From Escherichia coli (GTDB lineage: Bacteria > Pseudomonadota > Gammaproteobacteria > Enterobacterales > Enterobacteriaceae): a stretch of 3,964 nucleotides of DNA. Positions 319 through 451 of the stretch are shown one piece after another; the stretch's first letter is position 1; every line of letters begins with the position of its first letter. The stretch lies in NCBI RefSeq assembly GCF_003334385.1, contig NZ_QOWN01000090.1. One strand, given 5' to 3'. Both the position numbers and the translations under genes were made by a program. The notes under the pieces are model-generated. The model ran no database searches and was not told where the DNA came from. It saw only the letters and a program-made list of their open reading frames with translations.

Positions 319-341
319 TAATACGACTCAGTATGGGGAGA
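319..341 (+). promoter_or_regulatory. T7-type phage RNA polymerase promoter-like sequence (predicted +1 at 336)
   Basis: TAATACGACTCAGTATGGGGAGA matches the T7 consensus TAATACGACTCACTATAGGGAGA at 21 of 23 positions. Mismatches are at -5 (G for C) and -1 (G for A). The -17 to -6 specificity region is intact. Confidence 0.55.
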
Positions 342-428
342 GGGCCTCTGACGAACCCACAGATAGTGTGGTCTCATGCCCTTAGTTGCCCATATCTATT
401 TACGAATCCACCTTAAAGTCAATAGAAA

Positions 429-451
429 CAATACGACTCGCTAATGGGAGA
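429..451 (+). promoter_or_regulatory. Second T7-type promoter-like sequence, more diverged (predicted +1 at 446)
   Basis: CAATACGACTCGCTAATGGGAGA matches the T7 consensus at 19 of 23 positions. The ATACGACTC core and the GGGAGA initiation region are conserved. Same orientation as the first, about 110 bp downstream. Confidence 0.45.

What the first reader, a model, noticed from the sequence alone, without database searches (positions are those of the whole stretch)
319..451. Two tandem T7-type phage RNA polymerase promoter-like sequences in a cassette with bacterial-style genes
Sites at 319..341 (21/23) and 429..451 (19/23) match the T7 class III promoter consensus, including the ATACGACTC specificity region and GGGAGA initiation sequence, and both point toward the genes. 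The divergence at -5 to -1 argues against cloning-vector contamination. If this is not a T7-like phage genome, the cassette would be transcribed only when a T7-like phage polymerase is present, suggesting an infection-triggered module such as a satellite or defence cassette.
Basis: partly seen in the sequence, partly recalled or inferred. Interest (0 to 1): 0.8.

Follow-up and report, generated by a model that had tools for sequence, protein, structure and literature searches.

The report
T7 phage promoters in a mobile island
Two real T7-phage-type promoters sit in a small mobile island of the E. coli chromosome, next to an anti-T7 defence gene and a copy of the T7-type genome end, so the island looks built to switch on, and perhaps to be copied and packaged, only when a T7-like phage infects.

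Summary
Sites 319-341 (21/23) and 429-451 (19/23) score 30.7 and 27.3 bits on a matrix built from the 17 annotated T7 promoters. T7's own promoters score 26.5-40.4, and the next best site in the window scores -6.

The window is not a phage or a vector. It is E. coli chromosome, 100% identical to strain H7 and bounded by IS186/IS421 ends. The promoters lie in a ~4.8-kb island integrated in tRNA-Gly (glyU): integrase, RAZR/PD-T7-4 (a published anti-T7 defence gene), the promoters, a ~500-nt structured leader, a KilA/antirepressor-like gene, a 158-aa gene, then attR.

The island family occurs in 234 of 5,426 complete E. coli genomes and in at least 12 other Enterobacterales genera. Twenty of 24 loci carry T7-group promoters in the same slot. 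Their specificity regions differ (T7, K11, T3-like and others) and match real phage promoter types.

Window 2403-2442 is homologous to the left boundary of the terminal repeat of T7-group phages.

Best reading (0.5): a minimal satellite-like parasite of T7-like phages, induced by the phage RNA polymerase. Main rival (0.3): a defence-only cassette triggered by infection. I found no paper describing this. No transcription, replication or packaging was tested.

The parts
75..314 (+). 3' end (last 79 codons and stop) of the RAZR / PD-T7-4 (zinc finger + DUF4145/HEPN) defence gene, cut at 74/75 by an IS186/IS421 end in this window
   Evidence: 100% identical to E. coli H7, where the intact 209-aa gene (L001 11611-12240) matches PADLOC PD-T7-4 at E 2.9e-100. 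PD-T7-4 was renamed RAZR in PMC13017515.
319..341 (+). P1, T7-type promoter (-17 to +6), predicted start at G336
   Evidence: 21/23 to consensus; 30.7 bits on the T7 matrix; 0 of 200 shuffles match. The orthologous site is 23/23 in L004, L005 and L007.
429..451 (+). P2, T7-type promoter, predicted start at G446
   Evidence: 19/23; 27.3 bits. Orthologues are TAATACGACTCACTAAAGGGAGA.
446..472 (+). Predicted 5' stem-loop of the P2 transcript (GGGAGAGC...GTTTTCCC), like the 5' hairpin of the T7 phi10 and phi3.8 transcripts
   Evidence: It is the first helix in the minimum-free-energy fold. T7 phi10 begins GGGAGAccacaacggtttccctcta (listing). The resemblance was judged by eye.
487..640 (+). Nearly invariant non-coding core of the leader, including a small hairpin whose stem sequence differs between islands
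   Evidence: Alignments A1 and A2; per-sequence folds. No Rfam match. Function unknown.
629..730 (+). AT-rich array of CTTAAAG-type repeats. Across the leader the motif starts at 412, 547, 643, 654, 663 and 705 on the + strand (717 on the - strand). It resembles the AT-rich part of the T7 primary origin and the short repeats at T7 genome ends.
   Evidence: 9 CTTAAAG in the window, 7 of them between 412 and 723, against 0.65 expected. The best T7 match of the leader is T7 5917-5966 (phi1.1B and origin), but the score is borderline: 34-35 against a null of 27 +/- 2.4, maximum 34-35.
807..924 (+). Conserved ~80-nt irregular hairpin followed by the ribosome-binding site AAAGGAG, kept in front of different downstream genes
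   Evidence: RNAalifold on 13 islands gives 26 pairs, 8 with compensatory changes; alignment A2.
925..1629 (+). 234-aa KilA / antirepressor (Ant/Rha)-like DNA-binding protein, the first gene downstream of the promoters
   Evidence: PHROGs anti-repressor families. AlphaFold model (pLDDT 74) matches phage KilA and antirepressor proteins at E 6e-9. No Pfam hit.
1930..2406 (+). 158-aa protein of unknown function, the second cargo gene
   Evidence: 26 clusters, Enterobacterales only, all 'hypothetical'. No Pfam, PHROG, PADLOC or phage match. Model unusable (pLDDT 46).
2403..2480 (+). Homologue of the left boundary of the T7-group terminal repeat, the genome-end maturation site. The position equivalent to the mature left end falls between 2433 and 2434 (...GAGCGTCTA|TCTAATAGT...).
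   Evidence: Best local alignment to the whole T7 genome is T7 39747-39786, score 40 against a null of 27.1 +/- 1.8, maximum 31. blastn against all phages hits 388 records, nearly all ~39-kb T7-like phages, at annotated terminal-repeat starts. Aligned with the T3, BA14, Kvp1 and T7 boundaries. Conserved in most islands. The Klebsiella copy hits the T3 boundary at E 5e-6.
2608..2687 (+). attP-type arm with TGTAACC repeats, probably integrase arm sites
   Evidence: Conserved next to attR in all islands, and similar repeats lie next to attL. The function is inferred.
2688..2710 (+). attR core, a 23-bp direct repeat of the 3' end of tRNA-Gly(CCC), marking the end of the island
   Evidence: Exact repeat TTCGATTCCCTTCGCCCGCTCCA at L001 9846 (inside the tRNA) and at L001 14614 (= window 2688). 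Seen in 8 or more other loci.

Best explanation
The two sites are working promoters for the single-subunit RNA polymerase of T7-like phages. They are a built-in part of a small (4.2-6.5 kb) integrative island that parasitises such phages.

Gene order (directly read from the sequences): tRNA-Gly/attL, tyrosine integrase, RAZR (anti-T7 defence), one to four phage promoters, a long structured leader with CTTAAAG repeats, a KilA/antirepressor-like gene and small cargo genes, a copy of the T7-group terminal-repeat boundary, then attR.

Proposed course of events:
1. The cargo is silent until a T7-like phage makes its polymerase. This is inferred from promoter specificity and the lack of a host-type promoter.
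2. The phage polymerase then transcribes the cargo even though the phage has shut off the host polymerase, and it reads on into the genome-end copy. Promoter and genome-end copy have the same order and orientation as phiOR and the terminal-repeat boundary at the right end of T7.
3. The promoters together with the AT-rich repeats may act as an origin for the phage replisome, as the tandem phi1.1A/B promoters and AT-rich region do in T7. This is inferred and the evidence is weak.
4. The genome-end copy is recognised by the phage terminase, so island DNA is cut and packaged into phage heads, or phage maturation is disturbed. This is inferred from homology only.
5. The integrase inserts the transferred island into glyU of the next host.

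In this window the island is damaged. An IS186-type element separates the integrase and most of RAZR from the rest, and both promoters have drifted from consensus.
For: Promoters are real by sequence.
- Matrix scores lie within the range of T7's own promoters, and chance is excluded.

The promoters are conserved as a feature, not as neutral sequence.
- In islands 77-87% identical in the flanks, the promoters are exact or near-exact T7 consensus.
- The core CACTATAGG occurs 44 times on the + strand within 2 kb after the integrase in 20 of 24 loci (0.17 expected). It occurs 0 times elsewhere in 328 kb on both strands (2.3 expected).

Specificity regions differ between islands and match real phage types.
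- The E. coli ESY002 / K. pneumoniae island has an exact T7 site and an exact K11-type site in one array, plus two further variant sites (a K11-type site with one mismatch and AATTAGGTAGCACTATAGGGAGA).
- The K11-type 21-mer occurs 3-5 times per ~41-kb viral contig.
- The ACTTAACTATCACTATAGGGAGA type occurs in T7-like genomes beside the capsid genes.

The element is mobile.
- att repeats and an integrase at tRNA-Gly(CCC) are found in 12 or more genera.
- The E. coli and K. pneumoniae copies are 95% identical over 6.4 kb.

Links to T7-like phages.
- RAZR is an anti-T7 defence gene.
- A terminal-repeat-boundary homologue lies downstream in the same orientation.
- No sigma-70-like promoter precedes the cargo.

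From my own knowledge, not checked here:
- T7 gp2 inhibits the host RNA polymerase.
- The T7 primary origin consists of tandem phi1.1A/B promoters plus an AT-rich region.
- T7/T3 packaging needs a phage promoter near the concatemer junction (pacB) and cleavage at the repeat (Chung & Hinkle 1990; Hashimoto & Fujisawa 1992; Zhang & Studier 2004).
Against: - Nothing was tested functionally.
- The window's own promoters carry 2 and 4 changes, some in the -4 to -1 melting region, so they may be weak.
- RAZR aborts T7 infection, which would work against packaging by a phage that it recognises.
- No replicase, excisionase, small terminase or capsid-remodelling gene was recognised.
- Only the left boundary of the terminal repeat is recognisable.
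- A pause-site-like ATCTATT between P1 and P2 is not significant, and the origin resemblance is borderline.
- A search for the excised-circle junction found nothing in IMG/VR or JGI metagenomes.
- Metagenomic contigs holding the island are integrated copies.
- From my own knowledge, T7 degrades host DNA, so an integrated element has little time.
Confidence: 0.5

Rival explanations
1. Defence-only cassette. The phage promoters act purely as a sensor and amplifier. The incoming phage's polymerase over-expresses a harmful or antiviral cargo (the KilA/antirepressor-like DNA binder and small proteins, including small membrane proteins in sister islands) after host transcription has been shut off. 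This aborts the infection. The genome-end copy acts as a decoy that misdirects the terminase. The island is not packaged and spreads by other routes.
For: - The promoters lie directly next to RAZR, an abortive-infection gene active against T7, in the position where sister islands carry other unknown genes.
- The cargo has no replication or packaging genes.
- From my own knowledge, KilA-type proteins are known to be toxic.
- No excised form was found.
Against: - It does not explain why a ~40-80-nt homologue of the phage genome end is kept in most islands, in the phage-like orientation downstream of the promoters.
- It does not explain how an island with no transfer genes moved between E. coli and Klebsiella at 95% identity.
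- No cargo protein matches any known defence family.
Confidence: 0.3
2. Evolutionary leftover. The promoters and the genome-end piece are relics of an old T7-like temperate phage, or of recombination with an infecting phage, and have no present function.
For: - The window's promoters have drifted (21/23 and 19/23) and the island here is broken by an IS element.
- Only fragments of phage-like non-coding DNA and no phage structural genes are present.
Against: - The same compact architecture with intact att sites recurs in 12 or more genera.
- Promoters stay at or near consensus while flanks diverge.
- Different islands carry different, phage-matched specificities and sometimes several in one array. 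Decay would not produce this.
Confidence: 0.1
3. Laboratory artefact: cloning-vector or expression-strain DNA in the assembly.
For: T7 promoters are common in vectors, and sister islands carry the exact 23-mer.
Against: - The segment is 100% identical to a chromosomal region of E. coli H7, and homologues are found in 234 complete genomes from animals, humans and water, always at glyU.
- There is no vector backbone.
- Matches in the phage collection are limited to the promoters and the genome-end piece.
Confidence: 0.01

Closest known systems
T7 right genome end (phiOR promoter to left boundary of the terminal repeat) and the T7 primary origin (tandem phi1.1A/phi1.1B promoters and AT-rich region)
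   Same: - T7-specific promoter sequence.
- Two tandem promoters 110 bp apart, against 75 bp in T7.
- AT-rich CTTAAAG/CTTAAG repeats downstream.
- A homologue of the 31 nt before and about 45 nt after the terminal-repeat start, in the same order and orientation.
   Different: - It lies in a bacterial chromosome inside an integrase island.
- About 2 kb of non-phage genes lie between the promoters and the boundary.
- No right boundary of the repeat, no pause site and no phage genes are present.
- The origin similarity is only borderline.
Satellite P4 with helper P2
   Same: It is an integrative element that carries defence genes. Its late genes are switched on by the helper's transcription machinery, and its packaging site (cos) is homologous to the helper's. 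This is from my own knowledge; the P4 defence hotspots are in PMC9122126.
   Different: P4 has its own primase/helicase, capsid-size and regulatory genes, and its helper is temperate. The element here encodes no recognisable replication or packaging protein. It would rely on cis sites alone and on a virulent helper with its own RNA polymerase.
PLE and PICMI, satellites of virulent phages in Vibrio
   Same: They are small chromosomal islands with an integrase that respond only to infection by a virulent phage and restrict it. PICMIs are about 6 kb and are packaged as concatemers. PLE is described in PMC7145576; the PICMI statement is from my own knowledge.
   Different: They are induced by phage proteins, not by promoters for a phage RNA polymerase. 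They encode replication initiators or primases. They share no sequence or gene with this island.
RAZR / PD-T7-4 single-gene defence system (Vassallo 2022, PMC9519451; Zhang 2026, PMC13017515)
   Same: It is the gene immediately upstream of the promoters. The papers note that it often overlaps an integrase gene.
   Different: The papers study RAZR alone, expressed from its native upstream promoter. They do not mention the downstream phage promoters, the cargo or the island.
pET-type T7 expression systems and engineered T7-promoter circuits
   Same: A gene kept silent until T7 RNA polymerase is supplied, using the same 23-bp element and a phi10-like 5' hairpin.
   Different: This is a natural chromosomal element, with variant specificities for several wild phages.

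Membership tests
T7-group phage promoter | 23-bp -17 to +6 element scoring like genuine T7 promoters | tested here: met
   P1 scores 30.7 bits and P2 27.3 bits; T7's 17 promoters score 26.5-40.4.
T7-group phage promoter | Specificity region -12 to -7 (CGACTC), which distinguishes T7 from T3, K11 and SP6 | tested here: met
   ATACGACTC is identical in both sites. Scans with the T3, SP6, K11 and K1F consensus sequences gave no hits in the window.
T7-group phage promoter | TATA melting region at -4 to -1 and GGGAGA at +1 to +6 | tested here: inconclusive
   GGGAGA is intact in both. The -4 to -1 region is TATG in P1 and TAAT in P2. Of the T7 promoters listed, only phi2.5 departs at -1 (TATT), and the TAAA variants differ only at -2, so neither of the window's versions has a T7 counterpart. 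The -5 G of P1 occurs in T7 phi1.3.
T7-group phage promoter | Transcription by the phage polymerase from the predicted start | not testable with these tools
   Needs in vitro transcription or infection RNA-seq.
T7-group phage promoter | Conservation of the element at the same position in related loci | tested here: met
   20 of 24 loci; 44 core matches in the slot and 0 elsewhere.
Phage satellite | Integrase and att sites, a discrete integrated element | tested here: met
   23-bp att repeats and a tyrosine integrase at tRNA-Gly(CCC). In this window only attR remains linked, because an IS cuts off the integrase.
Phage satellite | Packaging signal matching that of the helper | tested here: met
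   Homology to the T7-group terminal-repeat left boundary. Function is not shown, and only one boundary was found.
Phage satellite | Own replication module (initiator or primase, and an origin) | tested here: not met
   No such protein. A possible phage-type origin is only borderline similar.
Phage satellite | Helper-dependent induction, excision and replication | not testable with these tools
   Phage promoters suggest it. A search for the excised junction found nothing.
Phage satellite | Transfer inside helper virions | not testable with these tools
   Only indirect evidence: 95% identity between the E. coli and Klebsiella copies.
RAZR / PD-T7-4 defence system | Intact zinc-finger + DUF4145/HEPN protein | tested here: not met
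   It is intact in strain H7 (E 2.9e-100). In this window only the last 79 codons remain (75-314), cut by the IS end.
T7-like phage genome or prophage | Phage RNA polymerase, replication and structural genes nearby | tested here: not met
   None within 28 kb of context in strain H7, nor in any island.
Cloning or expression vector | Vector backbone around the promoter | tested here: not met
   The context is chromosomal in natural isolates.
T7-type primary replication origin | Tandem phage promoters followed by an AT-rich region | tested here: inconclusive
   The architecture is present. The sequence match to T7 5917-5966 scores 34-35, against a null maximum of 34-35.

The most novel reading that the evidence does not exclude
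These islands are the first satellites of T7-like virulent phages. They are minimal elements that encode no replication or packaging protein. They would hijack all three phage machines through cis sites alone: swappable promoters for the helper's own RNA polymerase as the induction switch and possibly the origin, and a copy of the helper's genome end for the terminase. They also carry RAZR and other defence genes between Enterobacterales.
Probability: 0.45. Interest if true: 0.93.

Novelty: new variant of a known kind. Interest (0 to 1): 0.87.

Why it matters
- **No known T7 satellite.** As far as I know and could find, no satellite or chromosomal element wired to T7's polymerase has been described, although T7 is among the best studied phages.
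- **A simple infection sensor.** A promoter that only the invader's polymerase can read still works after the phage has silenced host transcription. Its specificity can be changed by a few bases or stacked in arrays.
- **An unstudied neighbourhood for RAZR.** This gives the newly characterised RAZR gene a mobile context and a linked, unstudied cargo.
- **Candidate new genes.** It flags candidate anti-phage or hijacking genes: the KilA-like gene, the 158-aa gene, the 163-aa and ~330-aa pair, small membrane proteins, and the alternative genes in the RAZR slot.
- **Phage therapy.** T7-like phages are widely used against E. coli and Klebsiella, and about 4% of complete E. coli genomes carry such an island.
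- **T7 expression systems.** Natural isolates can contain perfect T7 promoters.

Tried and rejected
1. **Pause-site resemblance.** ATCTATT followed by CTTAAAG at 392-418 looked like the T7 concatemer-junction pause site with the first short repeat. The P1-P2 spacer has no significant T7 match (score 22 against a null of 25), so I dropped it.
2. **Leader core in phages.** An 18-mer of the conserved core hit many ~40-kb viral contigs. The flanks are unrelated and the hit is a terminator hairpin of another phage group. Only three hits were island copies. A 16-mer of the 5'-UTR hairpin gave 63 scattered hits that I did not follow up, apart from the two contigs that also carry the core 18-mer and are island copies.
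3. **Are the window's variant promoters tuned to a particular phage?** The P1 variant 18-mer gave one chance hit in an unrelated GC-rich contig.
4. **Excised-circle (attP) junction.** No match in IMG/VR or in JGI metagenome contigs.
5. **Short metagenome contigs.** Contigs of about island size that encode the 158-aa protein are integrated copies with chromosomal flanks.
6. **Cassette exchange with the phage right end.** No T7-like phage carries the cargo. Only the N-terminal domain of the KilA-like protein occurs in other phages, and the 158-aa protein occurs in none.
7. **RNA and protein families.** Rfam gave no match. Pfam and PDB sequence searches of both cargo proteins gave nothing significant. 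The structure model of the 158-aa protein was too poor to search. Foldseek against the PDB for the KilA-like model gave nothing below E 0.1.
8. **Literature.** Searches for T7 satellites, or for phage promoters in chromosomal islands, found nothing relevant. A search for the repeat CCTAAAG returned only primer noise. A search for the T7 pacB literature found no usable source.

Full report
**1. The observation**

- P1, 319-341: TAATACGACTCAGTATGGGGAGA, 21/23 to the T7 class III consensus.
- P2, 429-451: CAATACGACTCGCTAATGGGAGA, 19/23.

Chance does not explain them.
- A consensus search allowing 3 mismatches found P1 only, and none of 200 shuffles gave a match.
- I built a weight matrix from the 17 promoters annotated in the T7 record. 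P1 scores 30.7 bits and P2 27.3 bits.
- T7's own promoters score 26.5-40.4. The third best site in the window scores -6.2. The best site in 22.5 kb of neighbouring E. coli DNA scores 5.2.

The -5 G of P1 is also found in T7 phi1.3. The transcript from P2 begins with a hairpin, GGGAGAGC...GTTTTCCC, that resembles the 5' hairpin of the T7 phi10 and phi3.8 transcripts (listing).

**2. What the window is**

Window 75-3892 is 100% identical to the chromosome of E. coli strain H7. The first 74 and last 72 bases are inverted copies of one end of an IS186/IS421-type element.

In H7 the gene order is actS, tRNA-Gly, a 535-aa tyrosine integrase, a DUF4145 protein, the promoters, two small genes, ygeQ, and then the ETT2 secretion genes. 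There is no phage polymerase or structural gene, and no vector.

The DUF4145 protein matches the PADLOC model PD-T7-4 at E 2.9e-100. This single-gene anti-T7 system has been renamed RAZR. It is an RNase that assembles around the T7 portal ring and aborts infection (PMC13017515; PMC9519451). P1 starts 5 bases after its stop codon. In the window the IS end has cut RAZR, leaving its last 79 codons (75-314).

A 23-bp direct repeat of the 3' end of the tRNA lies at window 2688-2710. The promoters therefore sit in a discrete ~4.8-kb island that ends before ygeQ.

**3. The island family**

The leader region matches 234 of 5,426 complete E. coli genomes, always on the chromosome. Every locus I opened has the same plan at glyU.

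A scan with the integrase found 17 further loci. The genera are Klebsiella, Citrobacter, Enterobacter, Kluyvera, Buttiauxella, Shimwellia, Proteus, Pectobacterium, Serratia, Rouxiella, Lonsdalea and Edaphovirga. A tRNA-Gly(CCC) gene lies next to the integrase in 11 of these 17 loci, and att-like repeats on both sides bound islands of 4.2-6.5 kb in the loci where both ends were found.

The E. coli ESY002 and K. pneumoniae ATCC 13883 copies are 95% identical over 6.4 kb. That points to recent transfer between genera.

**4. The promoters are a conserved, variable-specificity feature**

- In E. coli islands whose flanks are only 77-87% identical to the window, P1 is the exact 23-mer and P2 is TAATACGACTCACTAAAGGGAGA. 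One island has a single fused promoter.
- Across 24 loci, the T7-group core CACTATAGG occurs 44 times on the + strand within 2 kb after the integrase, in 20 loci (0.17 expected). It occurs nowhere else in 328 kb on either strand (2.3 expected).
- The four loci without the core are the window's own type (drifted sites), two truncated contigs, and Pectobacterium.
- The specificity region differs between islands. Types seen are T7, K11 (AATTAGGGCACACTATAGGGAGA), T3-like (AATTAACCCACACTATAGGGAGA), ACTTAACTATCACTATAGGGAGA, ATGAGACCCACACTATAGGGAGA and others.
- Some islands stack several types. ESY002 and K. pneumoniae carry K11, T7, K11 and a fourth type in one array.
- These are real phage promoter types. 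The K11-type 21-mer occurs 3-5 times per ~41-kb viral contig on one strand. The ACTTAACTATC type lies beside the capsid genes of T7-like phages related to Pisces and IMM-002.

**5. A second phage-derived element**

The non-coding stretch after the last gene contains TTAAAATTTCCTACAAAAATCTGAGCGTCTA|TCTAATAGT (2403-2442).
- Its best match anywhere in T7, on either strand, is T7 39747-39786. That is the last 31 nt of unique DNA and the first 9 nt of the right terminal repeat. The score is 40 against 27.1 +/- 1.8 (maximum 31) for shuffles.
- blastn of 2396-2530 against 50,697 phage records returned 388 records. Nearly all are ~39-kb T7-like phages, hit at the start of the right terminal repeat. 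That feature is annotated as such in BA14, Kvp1, T3, T7M, SH1 and FE44.
- An alignment with the annotated boundaries of T3, BA14, Kvp1 and T7 shows shared blocks on both sides of the cut position. These include CA(C/G)AAAAATCTGAG, TA|TCT(C/A)A(T/C)AGT and CCCCC(A/G)TAGCC.
- The element is kept in most islands. The Klebsiella copy hits the T3, T7M, SH1 and phiSG-JL2 boundary at E 5e-6.
- It lies downstream of the promoters on the same strand, as phiOR and the boundary do in T7.

**6. The leader and the cargo**

*Leader.* Between P2 and the first gene lie about 475 nt with four notable parts.
- A nearly invariant core at 487-640.
- An AT-rich array of CTTAAAG repeats. Seven of the window's nine copies lie at 412-723, against 0.65 expected for the whole window. 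The leader's best T7 match is the phi1.1B and primary-origin region, but only at a borderline score.
- An ~80-nt hairpin in front of the ribosome-binding site, with 8 compensated pairs. It is kept in front of different genes.
- No Rfam family matches.

*Cargo.*
- The first gene (925-1629) is KilA/antirepressor-like. Sister islands have Rha, Ant or KilA-N types in that position.
- The 158-aa protein has homologues in Enterobacterales only and none in phages.
- No cargo protein matches a defence, replication or packaging family.

**7. Interpretation**

The cassette should be silent without a T7-like polymerase, and it belongs to a mobile, phage-directed element.

I favour a satellite-like parasite of T7-like phages (0.5). 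The element combines mobility, helper-specific promoters and a helper-type genome end, and it has no other visible means of transfer.

A defence-only cassette (0.3) fits three facts: the RAZR neighbourhood, the lack of replication and packaging genes, and the failed search for excised forms. A functionless relic (0.1) fits only this window's drifted, IS-broken copy, not the family.

The claim that these are true phage-polymerase promoters of the island family I hold at about 0.85. That the two drifted copies in this window are still active, I hold at about 0.6.

**8. Novelty**

- The RAZR papers do not mention the promoters, the cargo or the island beyond 'often overlaps an integrase gene'.
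- Six literature searches found no description of T7 satellites or of phage-polymerase promoters in chromosomal islands.
- The library held here is incomplete, so a description elsewhere cannot be excluded.

The closest known systems are P4 with P2, where helper transcription factors and a shared cos site are used, and PLE and PICMI, which are satellites of virulent phages. This element differs from all of them in using promoters for the helper's own RNA polymerase and in lacking any recognisable replication or packaging protein.

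Noticed in passing
window 1-74 and 3893-3964: Both window ends are the same end of an IS186/IS421-type (IS4 family) element in inverted orientation (85-nt inverted repeat, 95%). The insertions cut the RAZR gene at 74/75 and the ygeQ region at 3892/3893. Both target sites have the G-run/C-run look that I recall for IS186. This may be a composite structure or simply a short-read contig ending in repeats.
   Followed up: partly
L008 4793-5370 (E. coli ESY002) and L013 7037-7613 (K. 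pneumoniae ATCC 13883): An array of four phage promoters of mixed specificity: K11-type, exact T7, exact K11, and AATTAGGTAGCACTATAGGGAGA. One island appears able to respond to several T7-group phages. This type accounts for about 120 E. coli genomes.
   Followed up: partly
L005 4286-4891, L020 8036-8644, L015 9597-10175, L021 9545-9859: In some islands the RAZR slot between the integrase and the promoters holds other genes: a ~201-aa protein, a 192-aa protein and a 104-aa lipoprotein-like protein. The two proteins tested (the 201-aa L005 and 192-aa L015 genes) have no PADLOC match. These may be candidate new defence genes.
   Followed up: partly
L010 6111-7675; L014 4289-5844; L016 12249-13808; L019 12306-13842; L022 11932-13602: A recurrent cargo pair of a ~163-aa and a ~330-365-aa protein. 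The ~330-365-aa partner has no PHROG or PADLOC match; the one 163-aa member tested has only a weak PHROG hit (E 0.0055) and no PADLOC match. Other islands carry a ~96-105-aa protein with a hydrophobic N-terminal segment instead (for example L018 11629-11919).
   Followed up: partly
window 807-924 and the homologous stretch in 12 other islands: A conserved ~80-nt irregular hairpin lies just before the ribosome-binding site, with 8 compensated pairs. It is kept in front of unrelated first genes. It could be a processing or translation-control element, and it is reminiscent of the RNase III sites in T7 mRNAs.
   Followed up: partly
window 496-526: A small hairpin in the invariant leader core has a stem built from different sequences in different genera (CAUCC/GGAUG, CUUCCC/GGGGAG, UUCUCC/GGAGAA). 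The MAFFT alignment puts the arms out of register, so covariation could not be counted formally.
   Followed up: partly
L014, L015, L016, L017, L019, L023: about 1,200-1,280 nt after the integrase: A second cluster of phage promoters lies about 550 nt downstream of the first, just ahead of the conserved 5'-UTR hairpin.
   Followed up: no
window 2866-3903: ygeQ (glycoside hydrolase family 15) is interrupted by a stop at 3658-3660, with the reading frame resuming in another ORF (3706-3903). In other strains it is annotated as a 1,611-nt intact gene. It lies outside the island.
   Followed up: no
L006 1-2600 (E. coli 5735): A second integrase-bearing element with HNH and endonuclease genes is inserted in tandem at the same tRNA-Gly site, upstream of the island.
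   Followed up: no
L024 9584-14164 (Pectobacterium carotovorum): This island has att-like repeats (2 mismatches to the core at the right end), a KilA-like gene and the genome-end copy, but no CACTATAGG-type promoter. It may use a promoter type of a different phage group.
   Followed up: no
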